This document shows positions 534 to 60,556 of a stretch of 64,000 nucleotides of DNA, one piece after another (the first letter of the stretch is position 1; each line of letters starts with the position of its first letter). The stretch comes from Eledone cirrhosa (lineage: Eukaryota), in contig OZ024747.1 of NCBI GenBank assembly GCA_964016885.1, positions 44,888,001-44,952,000 on the forward strand, in the 5' to 3' direction. A program made the position numbers and the translations under genes. Below the pieces are notes generated by a model. It was not told the origin of the DNA. It saw only the letters and a list, made by a program, of their open reading frames with translations, and did not search any database.

Positions 534-626
534 TACCCTCTCTCCTCCTTTCTGTACATATTGACCCCCAAGCCTTTACCGTGATGTGGAAGGCTGTGCC
601 GGCATATGTGGACGACATCACCGCTG
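494..626 (+). CDS. Candidate coding exon 1 of an unidentified gene (start codon uncertain)
   Basis: Frame MKAATTTTTSPTTIPSLLLSVHIDPQAFTVMWKAVPAYVDDITA runs into the minisatellite; the first GT in the array (627) is phase-compatible with the AG at 5450-5451. Confidence 0.3.
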
Positions 627-9761: not shown

Positions 9762-9914
9762 TATGTGAGAAAACCCCACAAACCCTCCATCTCAATTCTA
9801 CTTTTGAAAAGCACAAGAACTGCGAAACTGGTAAAGGAACCAAATAAATATATATTTTTTTTAAAAAGACTCTAGTTGCATTTTTGATTTCATCTTTTTT
9901 CCCTATATATATAG

Positions 9915-15418: not shown

Positions 15419-15453
<35 letters not shown>

Positions 15454-15498
15454 TGTTTCTACTTTTGGCACAAGGCCAGCAATTACCCAGTACATTAC

Positions 15499-16681
15499 AG
15501 GACGTGGGTTAATCCAGTTAGACATTGCATTGAAAACTGCAACAATTGGATTATCTACATATCTAAGGGAATCACATGATTGGATGATCAAACTCGTTTT
15601 GAAACACGAAAGCATCAAAAGATCATATTCCATTACAAAAGATGCACAAAGATACAGTAATGGACTACAAATTTCAGAAGTCCCATTTACTGCTGAAATG
15701 GAAAACACAGAAAAAGCAAAGCAGGTAAAAGTAACTGCAAAGAAAGAACTGCTACAGAAACTGGCTAAGAAATAGCAAGAAAAGCCTCTGTATGGAAAAT
15801 ACCCAGAACGAGCTAACAATCCTGATGTTGACAAAACTTTAACCCATCAGTGGTTGGCATCCTCTGGACTGAAATCGGAGACTGAAGGACTGATTATATC
15901 AGCACAAGATCAGTGTCTGCCAACAAAAAATTACCAAGCCAACATAATAAAAAATGGATGCAGCCCATTATGCCGTGTATGCAAAAAACAACCAGAGACC
16001 ATTGACCATATAATTTCAATGTGCAGTCCTATAGCTCCAACCGAATACCTAAACAGGCATGATAGAGCTGCACAATACATACATTGGAAAATGTGTAAGC
16101 ATTTTGACCTGCCCCATTAAAAGAATTGGTGCGAGCATCAACCACCTCCCATACTTGAAAAAGATCACATCTCAATCTTGTGGAACTTTAGCATCCAAAC
16201 AGACCGAAAAATAGATGCAAATAGACCTGATATAATATTGAAGGACTTTAAAAAGAGGGTACACCTGCTAATTGATATGTCCGTTCCAATAGACAAGAAT
16301 GTATCTATAAAAACATTTGAAAAATTGAGCAAGTATAAGGACCTGGAGATAGAAATTGGAAAAATGTGGAAATTGAGAACTAAAACAATACCAGTGGTTG
16401 TAGGCGCTCTGGGAATGATACCTAAGGGGTCTAATGATTACTTATCGCAAATCCCAGGAAACCCGCATATAGGAGAAATACAAAAGATAGTACTAATGGG
16501 AACTGTCCATATACTAAGGAAGATTCTGTCAATATAAGTACATCACAAGTCTAAACACTAAAGATGCATGTGTGAGTATGTATGTTCTTTCTTGAACATG
16601 GCGGACCTTGTTGTCTCTTGAGGTCACTGGTTGTGACTTGGTGATAACTCGTATGAACATAAAGCAAGATAAATGCAACTG
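15499..16681 (+). mobile_element. 5'-truncated R4/Dong-like RLE non-LTR retrotransposon, family A
   Basis: CCHC knuckle CRVCKKQPETIDHIISMC, RPD..D endonuclease motif, in-frame stops, (TAA)n tail; near-identical to 23865-25050. Confidence 0.92.
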
Positions 16682-16699
16682 TAATAATAATAATAATAA

Positions 16700-17098
16700 T
16701 TGTTTCTACTTTTGGCACAAGGCCAGCGATTACCCAGTACATTACTGGTACTTTATTTTATCGACCCCGTAAGGATGAAAGACAAAGTTAACCTCGGTGG
16801 GATTTGAACTCAGAATGGCAAGGGCCGTAACTCTATGTGTCAAAGCATGGCGTCCGACCCTCTACCGATACTGCCAATCCACGCAATAATAATGGTTTCT
16901 AGTATAGGCCCAAAGCCAGCAATTTGGGGGAGGAGAAAGTCAATTAAATCAACTCCACTACGTTACTGGTACTTTATTTTATCGATCCTGTAAGAATGAA
17001 AGGCAAAACTAACCTCGGTGGGATTTGAATTGAGACCATAACTCTATGCCGCAAAGCATGGTGTTTGATGCTCTACCTATACTGCCAATCCACCACCC
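16700..17098 (-). mobile_element. Two tandem tRNA-derived Nin-like SINEs
   Basis: Reverse complements of the 13666 element at 16700-16884 and about 16893-17098. Confidence 0.85.
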
Positions 17099-17135
<37 letters not shown>

Positions 17136-17526
17136 CTGACCTGGTGGTTTTGGACAAGGTAAAAAGATTGTGCCTGATTGTAAATGTAGCCTGCCCATTT
17201 GACACGAGAGTGCAAGAAAAGGAGAGGGAGAAAATTAACCCATACCAGGACTTAAAGTGGGAGTTAAAAAGGATTTGGAACTGCCATGAAGTCAAGGTCG
17301 TCCCGATTGTCATAGGTGCACTAGGTACTATCTCAAAGAGTTTCCAAGGATGATTAAAGAAGATTAGTCCAGCTCCGCTTTTTGGAACACTTCAAAAGAC
17401 ATGCTTGCTGGGAACAGCAAGAACCCTCCGATACGTCCTGAATGTCTGAGGCTGCAGGTAGCAGCTGGATATTCATTTCAACAAGCTTTCCAGTTAAATA
17501 ACATCAATGACTGAGTCTCAAAGAAC
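17136..17526 (+). mobile_element. R4/Dong-like family B, short 3' fragment
   Basis: DLVVLDK..VACPFD..KINPYQDLKWEL endonuclease region flanked by (TAA)n. Confidence 0.9.
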
Positions 17527-17574
<48 letters not shown>

Positions 17575-17575
<1 letters not shown>

Positions 17576-18824
17576 TGATAAGATCTGAATACATTCGGAG
17601 AGTAAGGAGCGTATTAAAGTCACATCTGAACAGTAGGAATGCCATAAGTGCAGTAAATTCCCGAGCTGTGTCTATTATTAGGTACAGTGCGGGAATTCTG
17701 AGATGGAATGTTGCTGAACAAAAAGAAATGGATAGGAAGACTAGGAAGCTATTGACTATCTACAACATGTTCCACAAGAGGAGTGATGTCGATAGACTCT
17801 ATTTAAGGAGATCTGAAGGTGGAAGAGGTCTTATCAACATAGAGGACTGTGTTCAGATGGAGAAAAACAACCTACACAAATACGTGACTGATAGTAAGGA
17901 GCCAATGCTCAGAACTGTACTGAAGGAGAGGACAATAGACCAGGGGATGTCCAAGGAGGAAATAACAACAAGAAGAAAGAGCAGCCTTCATGAAAAATCC
18001 CTTCATAGTACCTTCTTTGAAAAAACTGAATTCAGAGATCCACAGACATGGAACTGGTTGAAAAGAGGAGACCTTAAAAAGGCTACAGAAGGAATGTTAA
18101 TGGCTGCGCAAGAGCAGGCCCTCAAAGCGAAGTGGTTGAAACACCATATTTACAAGGAGAAGGTTAGCCCACTGTGCAGGATCTGTGGAGAGAGAGAGGA
18201 GACTGTGGCTCACATTGTATCCGAGTGTAAACACCTAGCCCAGACTCACTATAAGGGCTGGAGACATGATGTGATGGGCAGGGTGATCCACTGGCACCTA
18301 TGCAAAGTAAACAATTTACCACATTCTGAGAAGTGGTATGAGCATAAGCCAGAGTCGGTGATAGAAAACGATCAGGTGAAGGTGCTGTGGGATTTTAGTA
18401 TACAGACAGACATGAAACTGGAACACAATAGACCTGACCTAGTGGTTTTGGACAAAGAAAAAAGATTGGGCCTGATTATGGATGTGGCCTGCCCATTCGA
18501 CACGAGAGTGCAAGAAAAGGAGAGGGAGAAAATTAACCGATACCAGGACTTAAAGTGGGTGGTAAAAAGGATTTGGAACTGCCATGAAGTCAAAGTGGTC
18601 CCGATTGTCATAGGCGCACTAGGTACTATCTCAAAAAGTTTCCAGGGATGGTTAAAGAAAATTGGCCCCGCCACGCTTTTTGGAATGTTTCAAAAGGCAT
18701 GCTTGCTGGGAACAGCAAGAACCCTCCGATACGTCCTGAATATCTGAGGCTGCAGGTAGTGGCTTGATATTCATTTCAACAAACTTTCCAGTTAACTAAC
18801 ATCAATGACTGAGACTCAAAGAAC
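17575..18824 (+). mobile_element. R4/Dong-like family B, 5'-truncated, with an open 390-aa C-terminal frame
   Basis: CRICGEREETVAHIVSEC, RHD, RPDLVVLD, DVACP; (TAA)n on both sides. Confidence 0.93.
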
Positions 18825-18855
<31 letters not shown>

Positions 18856-20111
18856 GGTGTTCTGCAAGCAGATGACAACAAGAACAAAAAAATGAAGGAA
18901 TTGATAAGATCTGAGTACATTCGGAGAGTAAGGAGCGTATTAAAATCACACCTGAACAGTAGGAATGCCATAAGTGCAGTAAATTCCCGAGCTGTGTCTA
19001 TTATTAGGAACAGTGCGGAAATTCTGAAATGGAATGTTGCTGATCAAAAAGACATGGATTGGAAAACTAGGAAGCTATTGACTATCTACAACATGTTCCA
19101 CAAGAGGAGTGATGTCGATAGACTCTACTTAAGGAGATCTGAAGGTGGAAGGGGTTTTATCAGCATAGAGGACTGTGTTCAGATGGAGAAAAACAATCTA
19201 CACAAATACGTGACTGACAGTAGGGAGCCAATGCTCAGAATTGTACTGAAGGAGAGAACAATAGACCAGGGGATGTCCAAGGAGGAAGAGCAACCTTCAT
19301 GAAAAATCCATTCATAGTACCTTCTTTGAGAAAACTGAATTTAGAGGTCCACAGACATGGAACTGTTTGAAAAGAGGAGACCTTAAAAAGGCTACAGAAG
19401 GAATGCTAATGGCTGCGCAAGAGCAGCCCCTCAAAACGAAGTGGGTGAAACACCATATTTACAAGGAGGAGGCTAGCCCACTGTAGGATCTGTGGAGAGA
19501 GAGAGGAGACTGAGGCTCACATTGTATCCGAGTGTAAACACCTAGCCCAGACTCACTATAAATGCTGGAGACATGATGGGCAGGGTGATCTACTGGCACC
19601 TATGCAAAGTAAACAATTTACCACATTCTGAGAAGTGGTATGAGCATAAACCAGAGTCGGTGATAGAAAACGATCAGGTGAAGGTGCTGTGGGATTTTAG
19701 GATACAGACGAACAAGAAATTGGAACAGAATAGACCTGACCTGGTGGTTTTGGACAATGAAAAATGATCGTGCCTGATTGTAGATGTAGCCTGCCCATTC
19801 GACACGAGAGTGCAAGAGAAGGAGAGGGAGAAAATTAACCGATACCAGGACTTAAAGTGGGAGGTAAAAAGGATTTGGAACCGCCGATTGTCATAGGCGC
19901 ACTAGGTAATATCTCAAAAAGTTTCCAAGGATGGTTAAAGAAGATTAGTCCAGACCCGCTTTTTGGAACACTTCAAAAGGCATGCTTGCTGGGAAAAGCA
20001 AGAACCCTCCGATAGGTCCTGAATATCTGAGGTTGCTTGCAGGTAGTGGCTTGATATTTATTTCAACAAACTTTCCAATTAAATAACATTAATGACTGAG
20101 ACTCAAAGAAC
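18856..20111 (+). mobile_element. R4/Dong-like family B, 5'-truncated, frameshifted
   Basis: Collinear homolog of 17575-18824 with small deletions and stops. Confidence 0.92.
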
Positions 20112-20150
20112 ACTAATCATAATAATAATAATAATAATAATAATAGAAGA

Positions 20151-21173
20151 CGCACGTGGTAGATAGAGTGTTATGGAATCGCTCCCGTAAGTTTTTGATT
20201 TTTAACATATTTAAAACAATTGTGATATAACAATTCTTAGTACAAATGGGACATAAAGCACCAGGCTGTGCTCTCAGGAAATGAAAACCCATAATATCCT
20301 GTTATATCGCTCAAATATTCAATTTTGTATTATAAATTTTATATTCAAAAAAGAAAATGGTTATAAATGGAAGAAAATCCCCTCTGTCTACACTATATAG
20401 AACAGCCAAATAACAGCAATTTCATCACCACAACAACCTAGATACACCACCTATCCCATCACCCCTCTGTGTACACTAAATACAACAGCCAGATAACGGC
20501 AATTTCACCACCACCACCACCACCAATCCCAGCATAATAATAATAATTACTATTATTGTAACTCAAGTTTACTCAAAATGTTTAATTCAAATATTGAGGA
20601 AATATGTCAACACATATATTAAACATACGCGACAAACCGCATAGATACACAGATCAAACAAACGCATCCTACTACAGTCTATTCAACAAAACTCAGTAAC
20701 GACAATGCCATTACTATAGTCACCGCCGCCACCACTCCATCATTGCTACCAATATCCCATCACCGCCGCCACCACTCCTTCATTGCTACCACCACTATTC
20801 CCCCCACTACCTTCTGTTAACTTAAGAAAGGGGAAGGTGGCGGTATCAGTAGACAAGGGAGAGGCTAGCAAAAGATATAAATAGACTGACTTAGTGACTC
20901 GGTCAAACGTCAACGACTATGGAACTGCTGGCTCCTCCCTTCTCCACCAACAATAGAAAAAGCCCCAGCACCACCACCGACATAGCCAACAACAACAACA
21001 GGCAACTTCAACAAAAAGTATATTATTTTATTAATAATAATTTGATTCTTAAGCCACGCAATGCTCACATTAAGGAACCACTCATGATAATAACAATTTA
21101 AAAAACAACAAAAAAAGAAAACCCGTGACCAAGAAATACCAGGATGGCGGCCGGCGGGCAATAGCTGTGTCTC
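20151..21173. other. Unclassified 1-kb segment, either an insertion or a long 5' UTR, flanked by TAGAAGA direct repeats
   Basis: TAGAAGA at 20144-20150 and 21174-21180; short internal duplications; no coding signal. Confidence 0.35.
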
Positions 21174-24100
21174 TAGAAGAGGACGACCCTTCTAGTCTTG
21201 GTTGACACTCGTCCTAGAAGTGGTAACACGAAATGATTACCCTTGGTGGTTAAGGATAAAACGCGTCAAAATAAAGTAAATGTCAAATGATAAAATCTCA
21301 TACCAGATCGGCCGTCACCCGGGTCAAAAAGGGCCACGTCCCTCAGAGAGGAACCAGACTGGGGTCGAAAAATCAGCTAATGGTTCAAAACTTCCCATCA
21401 CTTCGGAGCTGGAGACCTCCCATAACCGGAATACTCCTACTGTTGGCTCTCCATGCTCACCACCAAGAAATCCAAAGAAAAAGAGAGAAAAATGGTCAAT
21501 GGAAGACAATAAAGAAGACCTTGAGGCTTTCTACACTGCCATGTACTACCCATCAAATAGATTGAATACAGAACAGACATATATCCACTGGAAAAAGAAA
21601 CATCCGAAAACAGAGGCTATATTGATAGTAACAAACTAGCCAATATACAAAGAAATATTGTTAAAAAAAAGTTACTAACTGATATAGAAATTGATCAGAT
21701 CAAGCTATTAGCACAGAGTCAGCGAAGGGAAAATGAAACATGTGTCAGTGAAAACGAGGTAAATTGTAATACTTCGAATCCCACTGACAGCAGAACAAAT
21801 TAAAGAAAGGATCGAAAAAGTGGAGGGAGTACATGTTCAAGATGAAACTCAAAATGAAAACAATGAGATTATAAATGATAAAGAAATGAATGAGAATGAA
21901 CTTGCCAACTTGAAGGATGAAATTATGATCAAATGGATGAAAATGAAAGAATCTGACATGGGAGAACGAGACACTCTCCCTAAGATCCAGAACTCCAAAC
22001 AGAACCAAAAGATAATACACAAGACTAACATAATTCTCAAAAACATTATCATCACAAACAAACTAAACATTACTGATCTAAATCATCTCTATTATGCATC
22101 GGCTAAAGTCACCACTCACTTATGTGGAGTGAAAATGAAAAAACAAAGGAATTCCCACAAGAAATCTACTTGGCAAGAGAACATCAATCGCCAAATAAAC
22201 TTTCTCCAATCTGACATAGAAATTTTAACAAACTACAAAGTAGGTGAACATGTTAAACAAACTAAACTTAGAAAATTGAAAAGAAAATATAGTATAAAAT
22301 CAACAAGTGACATAGACATGCTGATAGAAATAATCAAGCAAAAAGTGTCGGCCAAAGCTGCTCGTATAAGGCGCTTTGAAAAACGATCTAGATTCTATAA
22401 CAAAACGATCTAGATTCTATATGTTCAAAAACAACCAAAGAGACTTCTACAGAAAAATTGGCAAGTCACCAATAACTGCTAAATCAATACCACCCAATGA
22501 GGAAGTGCAAGAATTCTGGGAAAAGATCTAGGCCGAAGAAAAAGTTCATAGTATACATGCCCCGTGGATAGACAGACAAATGAAAGATACAGCTCACCTC
22601 GAGGAACAAACATGGGAAAATATGACAGTTGAACAGTTGCGTTTGGCTCTTAGAAAAACCAGCAAATGGAAATCCTCAGGAAAAGATAAAATACCAAATT
22701 TTTGGATAAATGCCTTCACAGTCTCATGAGCTGTTAGCCCAACTTTACAATGAAATAGTTAAGGAGCCAGAAAAGATACTATCATGGCTAGTTAACGGCA
22801 TTACATTCCTACTTCCGAAGAATGATGAGACAAACAATCCCCAAAATTACAGACCGATAACTTGCTTGACCATAATGTATAAAATTTTAACATCAGTCCT
22901 AACTGAATATACATATGACCACCTGATAACAAATGATCTATTTCCCAATGAGCAGAAAGGGTGTAAACGAGGCTCATATGGCTGTAAAGATCAGCTTTTG
23001 GTTAACCAAACGATATTGGAAGATTGTCATAATAGACACAAAAATCTATCAATTGCTTGGATAGATTATAAAAAAGCATTCGATAGTTTGCCACACAGTT
23101 GGATTGAAAAATGTTTAGAGATTTTCAAAATATCTCCCGTTGTCAGGAGGTTCCTGTCATTCAGTATGAAGACATGGAAAATGACACTCCTTTTGAATGG
23201 TGAAAAAAAATCACTGGAAGCTGGAGAAGTTAATATTAATTGTAGAATTTTTCAGGGTGACTCTTTATCACCGCTTTTATTCTGCATCGCACTTATACCA
23301 TTAAGTAAAATGCTCAATGAAACAAAACATGGATATAAAGTCTATGACAAAACCATTAATCACTTGTTCTACATGGATGACCTGAAACTATTTGCAAAAA
23401 ATGATGAACAATTGCAAGGGTTATTATCCACTGTGAAGCAGTTCAGTGATGACATTAAAATAGAGTTTGGACTAGATAAATGTGCCAAAGCAACATTCAC
23501 CAGAGGAAAGCTGCTGAAAAGTTCAGACATTAATCTTGATCGGGGGAATGTGATAAGAGAACTTGATCAAGAGGAAACTTACAAATATCTAGGTGTTTGT
23601 GAAGGAGACGGAATCAAGCACTCGACAATGAGGGAAAGGATAAAGAAGGAATGTTACTGCAGAGTAAGAGCAATCTTAAGAACGGAATTGAATGCAAGGA
23701 TTGATGCCATAAACACGCTTGCCATACCAGTAGTAACCTACAGTTAAATGTCATCAACTGGTCAAGCACAGAGATCCGTAGGCTCGATACAAAAATTAGA
23801 AAATGCACAGAATGCATCACCCTAAGGCAGATACAGATAGAATATATCTCCCTAGGAAAGAAGGAGGGCGTGGATTAATCCAGTTAGATATTGCATTGAA
23901 AACTGCAACAATTGGATTATGTACATATCTAAGGGAATCACATGATTGGATAATCAAACTCGTTTTGAAACACGAAAGCATCAAAAAATCATACTCCATT
24001 ACAAAAGATGCACAAAGACACAGTAATGGACTATAAATTTCAGAAGTTCCATTTACTGCTGAAATGAAAAACACAGAAAAAGCAAAGCAGGTAAAAGTAA

Positions 24101-25050
24101 CTGCAAAGAAAGAACTGCTACAGAAACTGGCTAAGAAATGGCAAGCAAAGCCTCTGTATGGAAAATACCCAGAAAGAGCTAACAATCCTGATGTTGACAA
24201 AACTTTAACCCATCAGTGGTTGGCATCCTCTGGACTGAAATCGGAGACTGAAGGACTGATTATATCAGCACAAGATCAGTGTCTGCCAACAAAAAATTAC
24301 CAAGCCAACATAATAAAAAATGGATGCAACCCATTAAGCCGTGTATGTAAAAAACAATCAGAGGCCATTGATCATATAATTTCAATGTGCAGTCCTATAG
24401 CTCCAACCGAATACCTAAACAGGCATGACAGAGCAGCACAATACATACATTGGATAATGTGTAAGCATTTTGACCTGCCCCATCAAAAGAATTGGTGGGA
24501 GCATCAACCACCTCCCATACTTGGAAAAGATCAAATCTCAATATTGTGGAACTTTAGCATCCAAACAGACCGAAAAATAGATGCAAATAGACCTGATATA
24601 ATATTGAAGGATTTTAAAAAGAGGGTATGCCTGCTAATTGATATGTCCGTTCCAATAGACAAGAATGTATCTATAAAAACATTTGAAAAATTGAGCAAGT
24701 ATAAGGACCTGGAGATAGAAATTGGAAAAATGTGGAAATTGAGAACTAAAACAATACCAGTGGTTGTAGGTGCTCTAGGAATGATACCTAAGGGGTCTAA
24801 TGATTACTTATCGCAAATCCCAGGAAACCCGCGTATAGGAGAAATACAAAAGATAGTACTAATGGGAACTGCCCATATACTAAGGAAGATTCTGTCAATA
24901 TAAGTACATCACAAGTCTAAACACCTAAAGATGCATGTGTGTGTGTATGTATGTTCTTTCTTGAACATGGCGGACTTTGTTGTCTCTTGAGGTCACTGGT
25001 TGTGACTTGGTGATAACTCATATGAACATAAAGCAAGATAAATGCAACTG
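21174..25050 (+). mobile_element. Near full-length, disrupted R4/Dong-like RLE non-LTR retrotransposon, family A
   Basis: ORF pieces from 21280; RT motifs NYRPITCL, DYKKAFDS, QGDSLSP, YMDD; CCHC and RPD endonuclease at 24064-24903; (TAA)n tail. Confidence 0.95.
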
Positions 25051-28906: not shown

Positions 28907-28941
<35 letters not shown>

Positions 28942-29050
28942 TAAACGGAAGAGAAAATGCTGACAAATTGTTCAGTGAAAAATAGTTTAATTAGGAATAA
29001 GTGAGAATTAGTAATAGTATTGGTTAGTATTGAGTTTTGGTTTTAAGTTT

Positions 29051-30364
29051 TGGATAATTACCACAATCAACTCCCACAACGCATCAAAAAAGAATTCGTG
29101 ATAGAGGGACTCAAATTTATCTTGGAGAACAATTACTTCGTTTTCTATAACAAACCCTACAGGCAGAAATCTGGGACCGCTATGGGAACGAAAACAGCCC
29201 CCACTTATGCCAACCTAGTCATGGGATACCTGGAAATCACCCTCTACACTAAAGTCCTAAACAAATTTGTAAACACTCTCCACTTACACATAGAAAGGAA
29301 CTGGAAGCGATATCTAGATGACTGCTTCATCCTTTGGCACGAAAACATCGAGAAACTTAAAGAATTTCACACCCTTATAAATGGGCTCAACACGAATATT
29401 AACTTCACGATGGAATACAGCGATCAACAACTCCCCTTCCTCGACATCCTCATTAAGATCTATAACAAAAAATAGAAACAGACATATACTACAAGCCCAC
29501 AGACTCCAAGCAATATCTTCCTTTCAACTCTTGCCACCCTAGACACGTTAAAATTAATATTCCCTACAACTTAGCCAAGAGAATCTGTACTATAGTCTCC
29601 AATAAAAACACCAGCTACTTACGGCTACAAGAACTAAAGGATACACTCATAGGCAGAGACTACCCTGCATCACTAATTGACAATGGAATCCAACGTGCCC
29701 TAAAACTCAGTACCTTAGACACCCTAAAGTAAATCAACCGAAACTAAAAGCTCTTCCATACATCTCCACACACAACCCCCTCAACAATGAGGCCTTTGAC
29801 ACCATCCTCCAGAACATCCCTGTGTTGAAAAAGGACCATAGAATGAATCAAATCCTACGAACACACGATATCATAAAGAGCAAAAGACAATCTAAGTCAA
29901 TGAAAAACATCCTAACACATGCCAAAGTACTGCCAACCACAACAACGAAACCCACAGTAAAAAAATGCGATAGACCCAACTGTGGCATTTGCATCAACCT
30001 AATAGAGGGTTCGGAATTCTATTTCAAAGAAGGACAACGTTTTATAGTAAAACACAATTTCACATGCGCATCAAAAAATCTAATATATGTATTAACTTGC
30101 TCAGGTTGTCGAGAACAATACATAGGCCAGACCAAAAACAGCCTCCGCCAATGCATAACTGTCCATAGATCCCAAATTAAAATACGGGAATACAGGAAAA
30201 TACCACTGAGTGAACACATTGATATCTGTGCCGCCCAAAATCATCCCAACTTCAGAATCTTTCCCCTCTACAAATTTAAAGATAATGCCACCCACATCCA
30301 GCGCATCAGCAAGGAATCTTACTTTATTAACAAATACGGACCCCGTCTAAACACTTCTCCCTAA
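29051..30364 (+). pseudogene. Disrupted PLE RT and GIY-YIG endonuclease ORF
   Basis: GTAMGTKTAPTYANL, RYLDD, LPFLD, YYKPTD..CHP, Cys linker CDRPNCGIC, IYVLTCSGCREQYIGQT; stop at 29473-29475 and a later frameshift. Confidence 0.92.
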
Positions 30365-30579
30365 GACGAATCCACAACATACACACGTCAACATACATAC
30401 CTACATCAGCACACATCTCTACCCACATATAAACACAATGACATACGTAAACACACATGTTCTATGGTGCAACACAAATATACACAAATTTTCATACCTT
30501 TTGATGTCTATAGATATAAACGTGCCGACACACACACATACATAAACGCACACATGCATTGCACACTGATGGGCACATA

Positions 30580-30850
30580 CATATTTGTGCACAGGTGTTC
30601 CAATACGGCAAAGCCTAATGAATTCCCCTTGCAGTACGTACAATCTGGACACACTCCAGATACATATTTGTACACAAGTATACAATTTCTGGACACACTC
30701 CAGATACATGTGTACAATTTGTGCACAAGTATACAATTTGTGCGCAGGTATACAATTTCTGGACACACTCCAGATACATATTTGTGCACAGGTATTCCAA
30801 TACGGCAAGGCCTAATGGATCCCCTTGCAGTACGTACAATCTGGACACAC
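30580..30850 (+). repeat. Internal duplications in the PLE 3' region
   Basis: CTGGACACACTCCAGATACAT three times; CCAATACGGCAA..CCCCTTGCAGTACGTACAATCTGG twice. Confidence 0.85.
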
Positions 30851-31008
30851 ACACACACACTCACACACACCTTGGTATTATGCCAATACTATATATCATT
30901 TCACACCTTTTATTATCAAGGTTTTTGATGTTCTATTGAGAGAATCGATTTTACTGAACATATCGAATAATGTACACCATTTTACCAGAAAAAAATACTG
31001 GTCCACCC

Positions 31009-31056
<48 letters not shown>

Positions 31057-31415
31057 TCTCACACACACACACACATATATACACACACATATACATACGC
31101 GTACATTAACATACAAAAAGACATATACACACACACTTCTCCGTATAAGACAAGAGCTGAAAAATATCTTTTAACATGTTAAAATATCCCCCACACACTG
31201 ACAGACACATTCCTACTGACCATCCCTCTACCACGAATTACTCTGCTACACACACACACACTTGTCTTAATAGGCATTTGAACAGTCAACAGGCTGCGGT
31301 TCGCACACACATCCCTGCTGACCATTATCACAACAACGAACCTCTTTACTACTACTACACACACACATATTTGTTGTGAAAGACTTATTTCTCAGTCAGC
31401 CGACACAAACCTACA

Positions 31416-31553
31416 TTTGGCGCAAAATTAATTGTTTACATTCACATGACCTCTACCAACCAATCAAAATTGTTTTGACCACAAGAATTTTTGCAACACG
31501 AATTGGCGCAAAACTTATTTTAATACCGCTGGAGCCACTTTTTTAACATAAAA
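31416..31553 (+). promoter_or_regulatory. Putative pLTR promoter motifs
   Basis: TTGGCGCAAAA twice (E2F-like), TCACATGAC E-box, CCAAT at 31460 and CATAAAA, all upstream of the HHR-like motif. Confidence 0.35.
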
Positions 31554-31618
31554 ACAGGTAGAATTCCCAAAACTAATCAGATCAGAGCAAACATCACGGA
31601 CGCTCTATCTCAAAATTA

Positions 31619-31654
31619 TTTTTGAAAAGCATTAGAAATGCGCAACCGGTAAAA
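31619..31654 (+). ncRNA. Minimal type I hammerhead-like motif (U3:A8 core, A13C change)
   Basis: ttt-TTGAAAA-gcatt aga aatgc-GCA-ACCGGT-A-aaa. Confidence 0.55.
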
Positions 31655-31803
31655 CTTAAAACCCCAAAACTGAATACTAACCAATACTATTACTAATTCT
31701 CACTTATTCCTAATTAAACTATTTTTCACTGTGAACAATTTGTCAGCATTTTCTATTCCGTTTACCAATATATAATAACTTGTGTGTTACACCTCTATTC
31801 TTT

Positions 31804-31894
<91 letters not shown>

Positions 31895-32190
31895 TCATCA
31901 TCACCATCATTACCGTTTTACATCCATTCTTCCATTCTAACATGGGTTAGACAGGTTGTCCTGTCGTGGGCAGTGTCCGGTTGGCTGACCTTGTCATATA
32001 TATGTATATATAAATAAATAAATACATATACATATAAATATATATATATATATATATATATGCAAAGTTTTATTTAAATTGTTGGGTTACAACGAGTAAA
32101 TATTTATAACTGATATAAAAGCACTCAACAAGTATTTGGAGTATATTTACGATATTAAATAAATGGAAACTATATTTATAAAACCATATT

Positions 32191-32256
32191 TATTTCATTA
32201 TATATATTTCAGGGATATCATATTAAAAATATGGTATGCCTTCATCAGACAAAATA
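32191..32256 (-). ncRNA. Type I hammerhead ribozyme
   Basis: tattttgt-CTGATGA-aggcataccatatt ttt aatatgatatccct-GAA-ATATATAT-A-atgaaata. Confidence 0.75.
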
Positions 32257-32618
32257 CAATATAAACAGTCTTATAAATAGATAGATTTGACATACCTTAC
32301 AGCTTCAACTTCCATTTAAAAAGTTGATTTGGTAGTGAAAAATGTTAGGGACAGTTATAAAAAGAAAGAAAGAAAGAAAACGAAGAAAAAGAAAAAATGC
32401 ATTCAACGAAAAACAGAGAGAGAGAGATATAGAGAGATAGCTGTTTTCTCTCCTAACCACATATATCTCTCTCTACCTTAATACTAGAACTAAATAAATA
32501 AATAAATAAATAAATATATCATTGATACGTCATTCAACTGGTGACCAACTACCTATTTTCTTTCTCCCTATCTCTATCTATATCTATCTCTCTCTATTTT
32601 TTTATTCTCTCTCTCTCT

Positions 32619-32663
<45 letters not shown>

Positions 32664-32914
32664 CCCTTTGTGTTTTTTCTCTCTCTATCTATCTCTCTCT
32701 GTGTTTTTTCTTTACATGAATTTCTTCTCTCTATCTATCTCTCTATATCTATCTCTCTCTGTTTTTCGTTGCATGCATTTCCTCTTTTTCTTCGCTTTCT
32801 TTCTTTCTTTTTATAACTGTCCCTAACATTTTTCACTACCAAATCAACTTTTTAAATGGAAGTTGAAGCTGTAAGGTATGTCAAATCTATCTATTTATAA
32901 GACTGTTTATATTG

Positions 32915-32980
32915 TATTTTGTCTGATGAAGGCATACCATATTTTTAATATGATATCTCTGAAATATATATAATGAAATA
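32915..32980 (+). ncRNA. Type I hammerhead ribozyme
   Basis: Same motif on the plus strand; 8-bp stem I with two G-U pairs, long stem II, palindromic stem III. Confidence 0.72.
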
Positions 32981-33020
32981 AATATGGTTTTATAAATATA
33001 GTTTCCATTTATTTAATATC

Positions 33021-33091
<71 letters not shown>

Positions 33092-33095
<4 letters not shown>

Positions 33096-35322
33096 AAGAC
33101 GATTTAGAGACGTATGACAGATAATAACTGGAATTTCTTACGTGACAACTTGCTGCAGGCTACTGATGAAACCTGTGGCTGGAGCAGAGCTCCAACCAGA
33201 CAGAGAGTGACCTGGTGGTGGAACAGCACAGTAGATAAGGGTATTAGAGACAAAAGACTAGCATGGAAGGCGTGGAAAAAGGGTGGGAGTAGGGAAGAAT
33301 ATACAGCCACTAAGAGAGAAGATAGATGTCAGGTGTACTTAGCACGCAGGGAGGCAGAGAGTAGGAGGTTTGCCAATGTTCTGCGACGGGAAGATCAGAG
33401 GCGTGCGGTGTTCCATATTGCAAGGCAGTGTGTCAATGCAAATCAGGATGTTGTTGGAGATAAATGTATCCGGGATGATGCCGGTGTACTTAGTGTCACG
33501 AATGACCAGAAAAAGGAGGCCTGGAAATGTCATTATGAGAGACTGATGAATGTAGAGAACGAATGGGAGAGAGAGAAATTACCCTTGGTAGATCCGACAG
33601 AGGGACCAGCTATTGAGATTGACGAATATAGGGTCCAAGAGGCGATTAGGGAAATGAAAAATGGTAAGGCGGCCGGACCATCGGGAATAGTTGCTGAGAT
33701 GCTGAAGGCATCAGGGGACGTAGGCACTAAACTGGTTGCACGCATCATCAATCAGGCTATATATGGTGGTGTCGTACCCAAAGACTGGTGCAGCAGTATT
33801 CTCATAAATTGCTACAAAGGTAAAGGGGATGCTTTGGAGAGGAGCAATTATAGGGGTATAAAACTGATAGATCAGGTTATGAAAGTGGCAGAAAGGATAT
33901 TAGCACAACTAATTAGAGAAAGGGTCAACTAGATGAGATGCAGTTTGGTTTTGTGCCTGGGAAGAGTACCACAGATGCCCTCTTCTTGGTGAGACAATTG
34001 CAAGAGAGGTTCTTAGAGAAGAATAAGCCACTATACTTAGCCTTTGTTGACCTAGAGAAGACCTTTGATAGGGTACCCCGATCTGTCATCTGGTGGTCCC
34101 TAAGGAAGCTAGGTGTTGAGGAATGGCTTGTGAGGACAGTGCAAACTTTGTACAGAGGTACTCTCAGTAAAGTCAGGGTAGGAATGGAGTTTAGTGAGGA
34201 ATTCCAGATACAAGTAGGTATACATCAGGGTCAGTCCTCAGCCCACTCTTGTTCATTATAGTCCTCCAAGCCATAACAGAGGAGTTTAAGACTGGCTGTC
34301 CATGGGAACTTCTCTATGCTGACGATCTGGTTCTTATAGAAGAATTAGTAGAGGAGCTAGAGAATAAATTCTGGCTATGGAAACAACAGTTGGAAGCAAG
34401 AAGACTGAGAGTGAATCTAGCTAAGACAAAAGTGTTGATGAGTAGAAAAGAGGACAAAACCCTGATTCCGTCAGGGAAATGGCCATGTTCGATATGCAGA
34501 AAAGGAACTGGCATAAATTCTATAAATTGCACACAATGCAGATCCGGGCTACACAAGAGATGTAGCGGGATAGCAGGCAAACTAACAGGTAGGGAGAAAT
34601 ATGTATGCAGTAGATGTACAGGGAAATTAGACAGAAGAAGTCGCACTGATGGACACATTTTTCAAATGCAAGAGGGCGCTATAGAAGTGGTGGATAGCTT
34701 CCAGTACCTAGGAGATCAGATTAGCATGGGAGGAGGGTGTTCTGAGGCCATAGCATCTAGAATAAGGATGGGTTGGAAGAAGTTTAGGGAGCTGCTTCCT
34801 CTGTTGACGAAGAAGGGTTTCTCCCTGCGTACGAAAGGCCGGTTGTATGATGCCTGTGTGAGGAGCGCGATGCTGCATGGTAGTGAGACATGGGCAGCAA
34901 CTGCAGAGGATATGTGATGGCTGGAGAGAAATGAGGCAAGCATGCTCCGTTGGATGTGTAGTGTAAATGTGCGTGAACGACCCAGCATAAATGTGTTGAG
35001 AGAGAAACTGTGTCTGAGAGGGATAGAATGTAGTGTACGGGAGAAGAGACTGAGGTGGTATGGACATGTGATGCGCATGGAGGATGACCGATGGGTGAAG
35101 AAGTGCCAGGAATTGCCAGTTGAAGGAAGACGTGGTAGAGGTAGACCACGAAAAACATGGGCAGAGGTGGTTAGAACAGACCCCAGATCATTGAAGCTCA
35201 CGGTGGAGATGACGAGGGACCGTGACGAGTGGAGAGATGCTGTGCTGAATAAGACCCGTCCCACCCTTGCAAGCAGGGAAAAGCGGACGTAAAATGATAA
35301 TGATGATGATGATGATGATGAT
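33092..35322 (+). mobile_element. 5'-truncated, frameshifted RTE LINE
   Basis: NYRGIKL, QFGF, DLEKTFD, LYADD, GSETW, RLRWYGHV, GRGRPRKTW; (GAT)n tail. Confidence 0.95.
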
Positions 35323-35324
35323 AA

Positions 35325-35679
35325 GGGATAACAAAATATCGTTATAGGTAATCCAGTTAGAGGTTGTGAATACTCAGTATTGTGGATAGTTTTAGCGTAC
35401 GGCGTTGTTTGACTCAACAAGAGGTTTCCGTAGTAAATAAATATAATTCCTATGTAAATTTATCTTGGAGTAATAATATTGAAAGAGTGAAGAATAACAT
35501 GGTCAACAGTACAAAAGAGTCCTTTCTGATGATCTGGTTAAGCTGACATCGTATTTAAAATTGAGTGGCACAGTTTCAAGTGTTCAGCAATTTTTAAACA
35601 ACTTAATCAGTGAAACAATTGTTAAGACTGTAAATAAAACCCTTTTTTGTACTGTTGACCATGTTATTTTTCACTCTTT

Positions 35680-35685
<6 letters not shown>
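35325..35685. mobile_element. Fold-back pLTR-like remnant
   Basis: 35476-35518 is an inverted copy of about 35643-35685; HHR in between; homologous to 43022-43260. Confidence 0.7.
35523..35626 (+). ncRNA. Type I hammerhead motif with weak stem I
   Basis: ttt-CTGATGA-t ctggttaag...cttaatcag t-GAA-ACAATTGT-T-aag. Confidence 0.6.
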
Positions 35686-35715
<30 letters not shown>

Positions 35716-35717
<2 letters not shown>

Positions 35718-37350
35718 CACAGTTGATTAGGGACCGGGTGAAACTAGATGAGGTGCAATTTGGGTTTGTGCCAAGAAGAGGCACCACTGATGCCGTCTTC
35801 CTTGTGAGGCAGTTACAGGAAAAGTACCTAGCTAAAAGTAAGCCACTCTACATGGCATTCGTCGATCTCGAGAAAGCCTTTGACAGAGTTCCACATGCTA
35901 TCATCTGGTGGGCTCTTAGAAAACTAGGAGTAGATGAATGGCTTGTGAAAGCTGTACAAGCCATGTATAGGGGAGCAGTCAGCAAAGTTAGGATTAGCAC
36001 TGAGTATAGCGAGGAATTTAGCATACAGGTCGGTGTCCACCAGGGCTTTGTTCTTAGCTCTCCCTTGTTCATCAAAGTCCTGCAGGCAATAATGGAGGAG
36101 TTTAAGACCAGATGCTCATGGGAACTCCTGTATGCAGATGACCTCGCACTTATAGCTGAATCTATGGTAGAACTAGAGAAGAAATTCCAAACTTGGAAGC
36201 AGGGACTAGAAAGAAAGGGTCTCAAAGTCAATCTGACAAAGAATAAGGTCCTTGTAAGTAGACGAGAAAACAGAACACAGATCCCCTCAGGGAAATGGCC
36301 TTGCTCAGTATGTAGGAAAGGTGTAGGTAGGAACTCCATTCTCTGCCCCAAATGCAAACAATGGGTACACAAGAGATGTAGCGGGATCTCCGGAAGCTTA
36401 ACTAAGAATGTAGGCTTCACATGTAGCAGCTGTGCTGGGACAGCAAGCAGCAAACAGCCACAGGAAACAAGTACCACCAAACTCTGGGAGGGTTCTGTAG
36501 AAACAGTAGACAGCTTCTGCTATCTAGGTGACCGAATTAGCAGTGGAGGTGGGTGTTCGGAAAGTACAATAACTAGGGTAAGAACGGGATGGAAGAAGTT
36601 CAGGGAGTTACTGCCACTGCTAGCTGCAAAAGGCTTTTCCCTCAAAATGAAAGGCAGACTGTATGATGCATGTATCCGAACAGCAATGTTACATGGTAGT
36701 GAGACCTGGGCGATGAAGGTGGCAGACTTATGTAGATTAGAAAGAAACAAAGCCTGCATGCTCCGATGGATGTGTAATAGTAATATATGCGAATGGCAAA
36801 GCATAAATCAATTGAGAGAGAGACTGAGCATAAAAGGAATCAAACGCTGTGTGCAGGAGAGGCGATTTCGTTGGTATGGACATGTGATGCGTATGAAGGA
36901 TGACAGCTGCATAAAAAGGTGCAGAGTACTAGAAGTCAATGGAAACCGTGGAGTGGGGAAACCCAAGAAGATCTGGGATGAGGTGATAAAAGCCGACCTT
37001 ACCCAATTGCAACTCTCAGAGGTGATGACACACGACCGTGACCGCTGGCATCACACAGTAATGCAGAACCCGACCCCCCACGGGTACAAACCACAGCTGA
37101 AGCATATAGACAATATGCCCCCACACCCTCCCACTGTAAAGTGGTCGTGGAGGTGCCACGGAAAAAAAGCACCCACCACCCACTGTAAATGAGGTTGGTG
37201 TCAGGAAGGGCATCCAGCTGTAGAAATCAAGCCAGAATCAGTTCCCGTATGAGCAAGACATAGTTAGTCGACCAGACACTGCCCACAACAGGACAACCTG
37301 TCTAACCCATGCTACTGTGGAAGAATGGACGTAAAACGGTGATGATGATG
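35716..37350 (+). mobile_element. 5'-truncated RTE LINE, second subfamily, ending in a SINE-shared 3' region
   Basis: Open frame with QFGF, DLEKAFD, GVHQG, LYADD, GSETW, RWYGHV; 37130-37350 matches the SINE body and ends in (GAT)n. Confidence 0.95.
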
Positions 37351-37826: not shown

Positions 37827-38410
37827 TTGGGATTCGAAACCGATCGGTAAAGGTAACTATAGTAGGTAAAGTCAATTTTTTAAAATTTATTTTGAAACTT
37901 TTTCATTATTTGCTAAACCTTGTTTATATATGTTCTGGCTCATTAATTTATTAACCTGCCATTGAACCACATTGGCATTTGGTTGGACAATACATGCGTC
38001 CCTTAGCGCCTTGTGCATGAAGGAACACATATCCTATTATTACTATTATCCTCTATTGTTGAGAAGCAAATTTGGTCGTTCCGACTGCTGCTAGTGATAG
38101 TTGCGGCCGGTTGACCTACCTCCCTCTGCCTCTATCTTTACTTCGGCCCTTGAAAAAATTGATTCCACTTCATTCACTCTCATCTCGGGAACAGTTTTGG
38201 ATAGCGCTAGTTCGTAATTTAAATTCAAGAATTTTGTATTCTTCGAATGAAAAGAACCTTCTGACGAGAATCTTTCTTTGCAACGAAGGCCGTATGGCCT
38301 CCGTTTATTTTTGGGATTCGAAACCGATCGGTAAAGGTAACTATAGTAGGTAAAGTCAATTTTTTAAAATTTGTTTTGAAACTTTTTCATTATTTGCTAA
38401 ACCTTGTTTA
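37827..38410 (+). mobile_element. Retrozyme-like element: 484-bp unit, about 1.2 tandem copies
   Basis: 37827-37926 is repeated at 38311-38410; carries an HHR; non-coding; TA-rich flanks. Confidence 0.8.
38256..38338 (+). ncRNA. Canonical type I hammerhead ribozyme
   Basis: acctt-CTGACGA-gaatc...gattc-GAA-ACCGATCGGT-A-aaggt; predicted cut after A38333. Confidence 0.9.
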
Positions 38411-38426
38411 TATATATATATATATC

Positions 38427-38771: not shown

Positions 38772-38920
<149 letters not shown>

Positions 38921-39157
38921 ATATTTAGAAACACACAGATACATGCGGACACACACATATATACATGAATGCATCCGCACCCAACTGTGAGTTAAGGGTG
39001 CTAACTTCACCGATGTTGCTCAATGAATGACTGGGACAGACCAATTCAGTTGAACTAGACTGAACCAGTATCAGAGTTAAAAATACATTATGAAGAGAGA
39101 AGAAACATTTAGATATAATTAGTAATAAAATGTATCATACCTAAACTGCTCCTAAAT

Positions 39158-39247
39158 TCCTCGACTACGTAGTTTCGTGGCATAAACAAAAACAATATAT
39201 CATAAAGATATAGAGTCCTTGCGAGGTCTGCCGACTTATCAAGAGGA
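39158..39247 (-). ncRNA. Type I hammerhead ribozyme, U3:A8 variant
   Basis: Reverse complement of 40091-40180. Confidence 0.82.
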
Positions 39248-40090
39248 TACCTCATTTTACTAGTCTCAAGAACGCGTCTACACGACGTGAGAAAGAATCC
39301 CAAAAGGCGGAGGGGGAGATAGTCACGCGATATAACGGTCGAGAAACAGAGCTAAGCCTCTTATAACCCCGAAGAAAATACCACGGAGGCGGAGGGGGTA
39401 TTTATATCGAGGCCGTAGAAGAGGTGGTGAAGAAGGCGAGAAGTATGAGTAATGGAAGCTTTCCAGCTGTCCCCACACTTCAAAGATTGCTCGACCAGAG
39501 GGAGTTATTAACAATATATTTAGAAACACACAGATACATGCGGACACACACATATATACATGAATGCATCCGCACCCAACTGTGAGTTAAGGGTGCCAAC
39601 TTCACCGATGTTGCTCAATGAATGACTGGGACAGACCAATTCAGTTGAACTAGACTGAACCAGTATCAGAGTTAAAAATACATTATGAAGAGAGAAGAAA
39701 CATTTAGATATAATTAGTAATAAAATGTATCATACCTAAACTGCTCCTTAACTCACAGTTGGGTGCGGATGCATTCATGTATATATGTGTGTGTCCGCAT
39801 GTATCTGTGTGTTTCTAAATATATTGTTAATAACTCCCTCTGGTCGAGCAATCTTTGAAGTGTGGGGACAGCTGGAAAGCTTCCATTACTCATACTTCTC
39901 GCCTTCTTCACCACCTCTTCTACGGCCTCGATATAAATACCCCCTCCGCCTCCGTGGTATTTTCTTCGGGGTTATAAGAGGCTTAGCTCTGTTTCTCGAC
40001 CGTTATATCGCGTGACTATCTCCCCCTCCGCCTTCTGGGATTCTTTCTCACGTCGTGTAGACGCGTTCTTGAGACTAGTAAAATGAGGTA

Positions 40091-40180
40091 TCCTCTTGAT
40101 AAGTCGGCAGACCTCGCAAGGACTCTATATCTTTATGATATATTGTTTTTGTTTATGCCACGAAACTACGTAGTCGAGGA
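40091..40180 (+). ncRNA. Type I hammerhead ribozyme, U3:A8 variant
   Basis: tcctc-TTGATAA-gt(c)ggca...tgccac-GAA-ACTACGTAGT-C-gagga; predicted GUC cut after 40175. Confidence 0.82.
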
Positions 40181-40685
40181 ATTTAGGAGCAGTTTAGGTA
40201 TGATACATTTTATTACTAATTATATCTAAATGTTTCTTCTCTCTTCATAATGTATTTTTAACTCTGATACTGGTTCAGTCTAGTTCAACTGAATTGGTCT
40301 GTCCCAGTCATTCATTGAGCAACATCGGTGAAGTTAGCACCCTTAACTCACAGTTGGGTGCGGATGCATTCATGTATATATGTGTGTGTCCGCATGTATC
40401 TGTGTGTTTCTAAATATATTGTTAATAACTCCCTCTGGTCGAGCAATCTTTGAAGTGTGGGGACAGCTGGAAAGCTTCCATTACTCATACTTCTCGCTTT
40501 CTTCACCACCTCTTCTACGGCCTCGATATAAATACCCCCTCCGCCTCCGTGGTATTTTCTTCGGGGTTATAAGAGGCTTAGCTCTGTTTCTCGACCGTTA
40601 TATCGCGTGACTATCTCCCCCTCCGCCTTTTGGGATTCTTTCTCACGTCGTATAGACGCGTTCTTGAGACTAGTAAAATGAGCTA

Positions 40686-40775
40686 TCCTCTTGATAAGTC
40701 GGCAGACCTCGCAAGGACTCTATATCTTTATGATATATTGTTTTTGTTTATGCCACGAAACTACGTAGTCGAGGA
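40686..40775 (+). ncRNA. Type I hammerhead ribozyme, U3:A8 variant
   Basis: Identical motif, offset +595. Confidence 0.82.
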
Positions 40776-41280
40776 ATTTAGGAGCAGTTTAGGTATGATA
40801 CATTTTATTACTAATTATATCTAAATGTTTCTTCTCTCTTCATAATGTATTTTTAACTCTGATACTGGTTCAGTCTAGTTCAACTGAATTGGTCTGTCCC
40901 AGTCATTCATTGAGCAACATCGGTGAAGTTAGCACCCTTAACTCACAGTTGGGTGCGGATGCATTCATGTATATATGTGTGTGTCCGCATGTATCTGTGT
41001 GTTTCTAAATATATTGTTAATAACTCCCTCTGGTAGAGCAATCTTTGAAGTGTGGGGACAGCTGGAAAGCTTCCATTACTCATACTTCTCGCCTTCTTCA
41101 CCACCTCTTCTACGGCCTCGATATAAATACCCCCTCCGCCTCCGTGGTATTTTCTTCGGGGTTATAAGAGGCTTAGCTCTGTTTCTCGACCGTTATATCG
41201 CGTGACTATCTCCCCCTCCGCCTTTTGGGATTCTTTCTCACGTCGTGTAGACGCGTTCTTGAGACTAGTAAAATGAGGTA

Positions 41281-41370
41281 TCCTCTTGATAAGTCGGCAG
41301 ACCTCGCAAGGACTCTATATCTTTATGATATATTGTTTTTGTTTATGCCACGAAACTACGTAGTCGAGGA
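41281..41370 (+). ncRNA. Type I hammerhead ribozyme, U3:A8 variant
   Basis: Identical motif, offset +1190. Confidence 0.82.
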
Positions 41371-41875
41371 ATTTAGGAGCAGTTTAGGTATGATACATTT
41401 TATTACTAATTATATCTAAATGTTTCTTCTCTCTTCATAATGTATTTTTAACTCTGATACTGGTTCAGTCTAGTTCAACTGAATTGGTCTGTCCCAGTCA
41501 TTCATTGAGCAACATCGGTGAAGTTAGCACCCTTAACTCACAGTTGGGTGCGGATGCATTCATGTATATATGTGTGTGTCCGCATGTATCTGTGTGTTTC
41601 TAAATATATTGTTAATAACTCCCTCTGGTCGAGCAATCTTTGAAGTGTGGGGACAGCTGGAAAGCTTCCATTACTCATACTTCTCGCCTTCTTCACCACC
41701 TCTTCTACGGCCTCGATATAAATACCCCCTCCGCCTCCGTGGTATTTTCTTCGGGGTTATAAGAGGCTTAGCTCTGTTTCTCGACCGTTATATCGCGTGA
41801 CTATCTCCCCCTCCGCCTTTTGGGATTCTTTCTCACGTCGTGTAGACGCGTTCTTGAGACTAGTAAAATGAGGTA

Positions 41876-41965
41876 TCCTCTTGATAAGTCGGCAGACCTC
41901 GCAAGGACTCTATATCTTTATGATATATTGTTTTTGTTTATGCCACGAAACTACGTAGTCGAGGA
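41876..41965 (+). ncRNA. Type I hammerhead ribozyme, U3:A8 variant
   Basis: Identical motif, offset +1785. Confidence 0.82.
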
Positions 41966-42030
41966 ATTTAGGAGCAGTTTAGGTATGATTTTATTACTAA
42001 TTATATCTAAATGTTTCTTCTCTCTTCATA

Positions 42031-42141
<111 letters not shown>

Positions 42142-59481: not shown

Positions 59482-59679
<198 letters not shown>

Positions 59680-60229: not shown

Positions 60230-60269
60230 AAATAAAGGATTATGAGTTCATTCAATTGACTTATGTTTC

Positions 60270-60317
<48 letters not shown>

Positions 60318-60393
60318 CAAAGGAAATGTGGTAAGGAACCAGGTGGACCATAACGCACCAAAGTACTCAATACTTGGGGTAGTAGAGTGGGTA

Positions 60394-60504
60394 ATAGGAA
60401 CCAGTAAGACCCCGACGGCTGAGCTCAAGCCGTTTCGACGGCTAATTCTGTCCAGAATTAGCCGTCGAAACGGCTTGAGCTCAGCCGTCGAGGTCTTACT
60501 GGTT

Positions 60505-60509: not shown

Positions 60510-60556
<47 letters not shown>

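What the first reader, a model, noticed from the sequence alone, without database searches (positions are those of the whole stretch)
28939..31807. PLE whose inverted terminal copy starts at its predicted hammerhead cut site
Seen: the pLTR motif ttt-TTGAAAA-gcatt/aatgc-GCA-ACCGGT-A|aaac predicts a cut after 31651. The inverted piece at the 5' end (28939-29051) corresponds to sequence beginning at 31651/31652. The core has the same U3:A8 swap as the 595-bp array. Inference: a genomic footprint of ribozyme cleavage defining the template end, which makes this Neptune-type family a candidate mobiliser of the nearby retrozymes. This copy's GCA (for GAA) probably inactivates it.
Basis: partly seen in the sequence, partly recalled or inferred. 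Interest (0 to 1): 0.7.

Follow-up and report, generated by a model that had tools for sequence, protein, structure and literature searches.

The report
Penelope copy, ribozyme coincidence mostly chance
This is an ordinary broken copy of an abundant Penelope-type jumping gene: most short copies begin about 72 bases upstream at a likely transcription start, not at the predicted ribozyme cut, the whole family carries the same core change that likely cripples the ribozyme, and only a small excess of ends at the cut site, clearest in a sister family with an intact core, hints that such ribozymes may sometimes cut in the cell.

Summary
Observation real, interpretation mostly not. 28932-29051 is the reverse complement of 31651-31774, and the hammerhead-like motif is homologous to an intact minimal hammerhead in a sister PLE family (family C). 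But GCA is not this copy's lesion: 30 of 30 close copies and 98 of 100 listed copies of the larger subfamily carry it. Of 90 tail-less ends, none breaks at 31650-31653, whereas 35 break at 31573-31589, about 30 nt below a TATA-like box. Family C does the same (40 of 84). The fixed end (31774) is the published PLE tail boundary. Genome-wide junction counts show only a minor excess at the cut nucleotide: about 4-5-fold over two control sites in family C, 2-5-fold in this subfamily, none in subfamily B. RT stalling at helix III would look alike. The 595-bp retrozyme has PLE-type ends and the U3:A8 core, but no sequence link to this family, and its 5' ends are scattered. Earlier scan notes on other genomes describe similar patterns. 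Verdict: new member of a known kind; chance junction about 80%.

The parts
28908..28938 (.). (TA)n target, left
   Evidence: sequence
28932..29051 (-). Inverted, tail-less, 5'-truncated pLTR piece (reverse complement of 31651-31774); 1-nt microhomology at 29051
29052..30364 (+). 5'-truncated, broken PLE ORF: RT core (YLDD at 29311), in-frame stop at 29473, frame breaks, C-x4-C-x2-C linker at 29966, GIY-YIG endonuclease. About 2.3 kb of 5' ORF seen in longer copies is missing.
30365..31400 (+). 3' UTR with (CA)n microsatellites and short internal repeats
31417..31553 (+). Likely promoter: TTGGCGC at 31417 and 31503, CCAATCA at 31460, CATAAAA at 31547 (TATAAAA at the aligned place in family C). 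Factor names (E2F, CCAAT box, TATA) are recalled, not tested.
31573..31589 (+). Dominant 5' breakpoint of the family (mode 31580, at a GATC palindrome); inferred transcription start near 31578-31579
31619..31655 (+). Minimal type I hammerhead-like motif: U3:A8 core, family-wide C at position 13 (31643), 3-bp A-U stem I, predicted cut after 31651
31775..31810 (+). PLE 'tail' (about 32-36 nt), present on the direct arm only; continues into the ORF 5' end in tandem copies
31807..31892 (.). (TA)n target, right

Best explanation
This is a dead, 5'-truncated insertion of a high-copy Neptune-type Penelope-like element whose template RNA most likely starts at a TATA/initiator promoter near 31578-31579, and whose short inverted arm likely stopped at 31651/2 through an ordinary premature-truncation junction rather than ribozyme cleavage. 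Shown: insertion into (TA)n; two fixed 3' ends (31774 for the inverted arm, about 31810 for the direct arm); a main 5' end at 31573-31589 with fold-backs centred on the GATC palindrome; C at core position 13 throughout the family. Inferred, following PMC11167929: the endonuclease nicks both strands of (TA)n and RT starts at two internal RNA sites. The two cDNAs then join head to head wherever they stop, most often at the RNA 5' end, otherwise scattered with a preference for A-runs. The hammerhead is predicted to be crippled in this family (C13, 3-bp A-U stem I, competing hairpin), yet the family expanded to thousands of copies, so cleavage is likely dispensable.
For: Breakpoints: 35 of 90 tail-less ends at 31573-31589, 0 at 31650-31653 and 3 at 31644-31659, against a background of about 0.12% per base. 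Genome-wide non-native-prefix matches: 817 at 31580 (perfect palindromes count twice) versus 40 (subfamily B) and 35 (subfamily A; 17 of 30 checked were true junctions) at 31652. Subfamily B, hand tally of the first 100 of 281 rows: about 15 junctions in the cut-site A-run versus 25 in the identical run 8 nt downstream. Family C starts at the aligned site in 40 of 84 ends, with TATAAAA about 30 nt upstream. Core C13 is family-wide. RNAfold gives the hammerhead stems for C but a competing hairpin for A and B. A13 changes cost 10-100-fold in activity (PMC4075628). Tail, inverted copy, junction palindrome and TATA+Inr are published for PLEs (PMC3846280 and PMC8557442 passages). In the anole PLE, HHR mutants insert normally in vitro and no RNA reads end at the cut site (PMC11167929).
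Against: Subfamily A, to which this copy belongs, has a local excess at the cut site. About 20 junctions at 31652 (17 of 30 checked, of 35) versus 4 of 24 at the same-context site 31659; hand tally gives 28 versus 10 for the two A-runs (p=0.005; 32 versus 16, p=0.03, with flanking bases). Stems I and II each show one compensatory pair change between A and C, so the fold was under selection in this lineage at some time. The transcription start is inferred from DNA alone.
Confidence: 0.78

Rival explanations
1. The C13 hammerhead still cleaves at a low rate, perhaps helped by the element's protein. A minority (about 1-2%) of templates are 3' cleavage products, and this copy's inverted arm is one of them.
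For: Exact match of this junction to the predicted site. 2-5-fold local excess in subfamily A. 4-5-fold excess in family C with an intact core: about 90 estimated junctions at the cut versus about 17 and 24 at two control sites. Compensatory stem changes. PMC11167929 reports protein-assisted cleavage of a PLE hammerhead.
Against: No excess in subfamily B, which has the same core and is more numerous. C13 breaks a conserved core position; a search for 'A13C' with hammerhead terms returned no paper. Neighbouring A-runs differ about 2-fold from context alone. Predicted misfolding.
Confidence: 0.14
2. The small excess at the cut nucleotide is real but comes from reverse transcriptase pausing at the 3' foot of the self-complementary ACCGGU helix, or from end-joining bias at the step from AT-rich to GC-rich sequence, not from cleavage. 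This could apply to this copy and to family C.
For: The palindrome is shared by A, B and C and pairs between two RNA molecules in the dimer fold of all three. A stall would end the cDNA within 1 nt of the cut site. Family C has a (TA)n tract just downstream that supplies microhomology.
Against: Subfamily B has the palindrome but no excess. In family C the excess is at one position: 13 of about 51 loci at position 0 in the hand tally.
Confidence: 0.08

Closest known systems
Canonical endonuclease-positive Penelope-like elements of the Neptune/Nematis type (PMC8557442 passages; Adineta Pen2a_Av, PMC3846280 passages)
   Same: RT followed by a CX2-5CxxC linker and C-terminal GIY-YIG; partial tandems forming pLTRs; inverted 5'-truncated copy; 30-40-nt one-sided tail; palindrome at the inverted junction; TATA plus initiator in the pLTR; microsatellite targets
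   Different: Very high copy number with fold-back mini-copies; the hammerhead lies upstream of the ORF start and carries a fixed C13
Minimal hammerheads of metazoan PLE pLTRs, including the U3-A8 variant of Schistosoma Cercyon (PMC4209133, parts 1-2 of 4)
   Same: Type I topology, palindromic minimal helix III, U3:A8 covariation, G10.1-C11.1 pair
   Different: C instead of A at position 13; no bulged base between positions 9 and 10.1; stems of only 3 and 4-5 bp
Anolis Poseidon PAc (PMC11167929, parts 1-2 of 4)
   Same: Two internal RT start sites that explain the tail; AT-rich targets; hammerhead apparently dispensable
   Different: Different clade; intact C3:G8 core overlapping the start codon
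Animal non-LTR retrozymes as PLE derivatives (bioRxiv 10.64898/2026.07.22.740005, part 1 of 5 and passages)
   Same: The neighbouring 595-bp array has a type I hammerhead, tandem units and PLE-like ends
   Different: No pLTR homology to this family or to family C was found

Membership tests
EN+ Penelope-like element | RT with C-terminal GIY-YIG endonuclease in one ORF | tested here: met
   Pfam RVT_1 (E 2e-4, below its cut-off) and GIY-YIG (E 8e-5, above its cut-off); long open frames in other copies. This copy is broken.
EN+ Penelope-like element | Partial tandem forming a pLTR; inverted 5'-truncated copy | tested here: met
   L092, L100, L102, L103 and L107 run from the tail into the ORF; inverted arms
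EN+ Penelope-like element | 30-40-nt optional tail | tested here: met
   Ends at 31774 versus about 31810; 4,041 exact tail-less ends next to (TA)6
Neptune clade | CX2-5CxxC linker before the endonuclease; microsatellite targeting | tested here: met
   C-x4-C-x2-C at 29966; (TA)n flanks. The linker is shared with Nematis and Naiad.
Neptune clade | RT phylogeny with reference Neptune elements | not tested
   No reference sequences were fetched; 'Neptune-type' rests on the linker motif and domain order
Minimal type I hammerhead (PLE type) | C3:G8 or U3:A8 pair, U4 G5 A6 N7, A9, stems I and II, palindromic helix III, UH site | tested here: met
   two compensatory pair changes versus family C
Minimal type I hammerhead (PLE type) | G12 A13 A14 A15.1 | tested here: not met
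   GCAA in 208 of 217 motif copies, GAAA in none; family C has GAAA in 75 of 80
Minimal type I hammerhead (PLE type) | Self-cleavage at the predicted site | not testable with these tools
   Only the indirect junction counts; inconclusive for this family
Mobiliser of the 595-bp retrozyme | Shared pLTR sequence or shared RT-start signal | tested here: not met
   blastn with word size 7 gives only microsatellite or short AT-rich matches; spacing of the two 3' ends is about 165 nt versus about 35 nt
Mobiliser of the 595-bp retrozyme | Same target and insertion architecture | tested here: met
   (TA)n flanks, head-to-head inversions, two fixed 3' ends in 68 of 74 ends; shared equally with family C

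The most novel reading that the evidence does not exclude
Thousands of genomic PLE copies record in-cell hammerhead cleavage as a minor, single-nucleotide peak of 5' junctions (about 1% of ends in family C). The sister lineage studied here fixed an A13-to-C core change across more than 6,000 copies while keeping compensated stems and a weaker peak, so C13 is a natural, protein-assisted active hammerhead variant. The pair of families would then be a natural experiment on what PLE hammerheads do.
Probability: 0.2. Interest if true: 0.62.

Novelty: new member of a known kind. Interest (0 to 1): 0.3.

Why it matters
Whether PLE hammerheads cut the transposition template in cells is open: activity is low in vitro (PMC4209133), and it is dispensable with no matching RNA ends in the one reconstituted system (PMC11167929). 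This genome offers two sister families with one promoter layout, one with an intact core and one with a fixed C13. Both put most 5' ends at the inferred transcription start and both are abundant, which supports dispensability. The small cut-site excess in family C is a cheap, testable lead. The single copy flagged adds little by itself.

Tried and rejected
Rfam scan of the window at E<=1: no hammerhead family hit, only microsatellite-driven microRNA matches. Sequencing runs: no RNA holder listed; contigs of two runs of unknown kind gave no usable joints; neither is evidence either way. A 5' splice donor at 31649 with a branch-point-like motif at 31675 was considered: no RNA to test it, the G-T-A is already explained by the hammerhead, and no acceptor I tried by eye puts the ATG at 31638 in frame with the ORF; left open. 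A retrozyme cut-site footprint seemed present at first (6 of 26 5' ends within +3 to +19) but did not hold in the larger set (6 of 72 within 0 to +24, 3.0 expected, p=0.08); rejected. Patterns for starts at 31651 itself gave 12 and 34 matches, the latter mostly point mutants and slippage variants on inspection of 30; the control at about 31667 gave 10. The family C control at -7 (67 matches) is dominated, judged from the listed prefixes, by duplication variants and palindromic fold-backs, so it was not used for the ratio. The apparent pile at -5 to +5 in the automatic histogram is partly an artefact of cheap gaps in the AT tract and was not used. An extra cap-derived G at start-site junctions (lead from note e1-9960851) was looked for by eye and not seen consistently. 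No earlier scan notes near this place.

Full report
Observation. The inverted piece is real: 28932-29051 is the reverse complement of 31651-31774 at 95% identity. The last base, T29051, is also the native base before the direct arm in the 5 other copies shown, so the piece begins at 31651 or 31652. The direct arm is a 5'-truncated, broken PLE ORF with RT (YLDD at 29311), a C-x4-C-x2-C linker at 29966 and a GIY-YIG domain, followed by a 3' UTR and pLTR, all inside (TA)n. Longer copies show about 2.3 kb more ORF upstream and tandem junctions in which the tail runs into the ORF start.

The family. The genome (G000, 3.0 Gb) holds 4,041 exact tail-less ends next to (TA)6. I took the first 90 listed on contig C1: 16 resemble the window copy (subfamily A) and 74 a related subfamily B, which has 6,243 exact matches over the motif. 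The fixed end of inverted arms is 31774, about 32-36 nt short of the direct arm's end. This is the published PLE tail (PMC3846280 and PMC8557442 passages), explained by two internal RT start sites (PMC11167929, parts 1-2 of 4).

Is the motif a hammerhead? By homology, yes. A sister family C (14,614 matches; 51-53% protein identity in RT and endonuclease at L260; a stub at window 9763-9907) aligns across the promoter and the motif. It has the same U3:A8 core and ACCGGT palindrome, but GAAA in 75 of 80 copies. Between A and C, one pair in stem II and one in stem I change on both sides. A descriptor with position 13 free finds the motif and nothing in 20 of 20 shuffles; among the 21 motif groups it listed from fetched DNA only A/B lacks GAAA. 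U3:A8 is a known natural variant (PMC4209133; PMC3088659 section 8).

Is GCA this copy's lesion? No. It is in 30 of 30 close copies, 98 of the first 100 B matches and 208 of 217 motif copies, none with GAAA. PMC4075628 (part 1 of 2) states that A13 mutations inhibit 10-100-fold. RNAfold gives C the hammerhead stems but gives A and B a competing hairpin over the core. A paper search for A13C with hammerhead terms found nothing; searches listed no paper whose title or abstract start describes such a family. Figures and supplements of these papers were not seen and could hold further core variants.

Where do templates end? Of 90 tail-less ends, 57 stop within 31440-31774; 35 lie at 31573-31589 (13 at 31580), none at 31650-31653, and 3 at 31644-31659. 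Many are perfect fold-backs on the GATC at 31580-31583, but others abut (TA)n or foreign DNA, so the site behaves as an RNA end and not only as a microhomology trap. Genome-wide, a non-native-prefix pattern gives 817 matches at 31580 (palindromes count twice) against 40 and 35 at 31652. CATAAAA sits at 31547, about 30 nt upstream; family C has TATAAAA at the aligned place and starts at the aligned site in 40 of 84 ends. I infer a transcription start near 31578-31579. TATA plus initiator and a junction palindrome are described for rotifer PLE pLTRs.

Is there any cut-site signal? A small one. Family C: 113 matches at the cut, 24 of 30 checked being true junctions, against 45 (11 of 30) at -16 and 52 (14 of 30) at -9. 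That is about 90 versus 17 and 24, with similar survival of the exact words; it is roughly 1% of ends. In my hand tally of the first 100 rows, 13 of about 51 loci start exactly at the cut over 23 positions. Subfamily A: about 20 junctions at 31652 versus 4 at the same-context 31659; the hand tally of the first 100 of 138 rows, after dropping rows with native upstream sequence, duplications and internal deletions, gives 28 versus 10 for the two A-runs (p=0.005; p=0.03 with flanking bases). That filter passes (TA)n flanks unevenly by parity. Subfamily B goes the other way: about 15 at the cut-site run versus 25 at the identical run 8 nt downstream (first 100 of 281 rows, same exclusions; one search agrees). 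So context alone moves these counts about 2-fold, the A signal is marginal, and the C signal is firmer. DNA cannot separate cleavage from an RT stall at the foot of helix III, which would fall within one base. This copy belongs to a class of a few dozen such junctions; I put the chance that it is a cleavage product at about 15%.

Retrozyme link. The 595-bp array has a type I hammerhead with U3:A8 and intact GAAA and 7,458 motif matches genome-wide. It inserts like a PLE: (TA)n flanks, head-to-head arms, and two fixed 3' ends, 37 at +75 to +80 and 31 at +243 to +249 from the cut, of 74. Its 72 5' ends are scattered. It has no homology to family A or C beyond microsatellites and short AT-rich matches. 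Mobilisation by some TA-targeting PLE is likely, and PLE origin of such retrozymes is argued in bioRxiv 10.64898/2026.07.22.740005 (part 1 of 5 and passages), but nothing singles out this family.

Verdict. An ordinary new member of a known class. The headline inference fails both of its own tests; what remains is a family-wide C13 core and a modest cut-site excess that is best seen in the sister family. Scan notes on other genomes report related patterns; they are unchecked leads and did not set the score.

Noticed in passing
window 9763-9907 (+); L214, L260: Stub of sister PLE family C, which has an intact U3:A8/GAAA minimal hammerhead, a canonical TATA box, a tail of about 60 nt, over 14,000 matches and a minor peak of 5' junctions at the predicted cut site.
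   Followed up: yes
window 38911-42034: 595-bp retrozyme array with head-to-head arms in (TA)n; two fixed 3' ends about 165 nt apart, like a long PLE tail; 5' ends scattered.
   Followed up: yes
window 37827-38415 (+); L234, L459, L521: A second retrozyme-like repeat (unit about 484 bp, 1.2 units here) with a C3:G8 hammerhead at 38261; its stem I and GUA cut site match those of family C, so it may be a closer PLE derivative than the 595-bp array.
   Followed up: partly
L089, L128, L131, L134, L145, L151, L154, L170: Many independent ~440-bp perfect hairpin insertions made only of the pLTR from 31580 on, centred on GATC, with the tail on one arm.
   Followed up: partly
window 31417-31466, 31503-31509, 31621-31626: Two TTGGCGC motifs, a CCAAT box and TTTGAA near the inferred start resemble a cell-cycle-regulated promoter (recalled consensus, untested); TTTGAA overlaps the hammerhead core.
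   Followed up: no
window 31638-31652, 31649, 31675-31681: A four-codon upstream ORF and a possible splice donor overlap the hammerhead; branch-point-like motifs follow.
   Followed up: partly
L091, L093, L264, L315, L357, L375, L417, L438, L463, L471: At least ten further hammerhead families with canonical cores turned up in flanking DNA.
   Followed up: no
window 597-5470: 25-bp satellite, 195 copies.
   Followed up: no
window 15311-25000, 33100-37200: Fragments of RT-encoding ORFs that look like non-LTR retrotransposons (by eye).
   Followed up: no
window 59514-59648, 60232-60629, 32142-33029: Long inverted repeats, some built from microsatellites.
   Followed up: no
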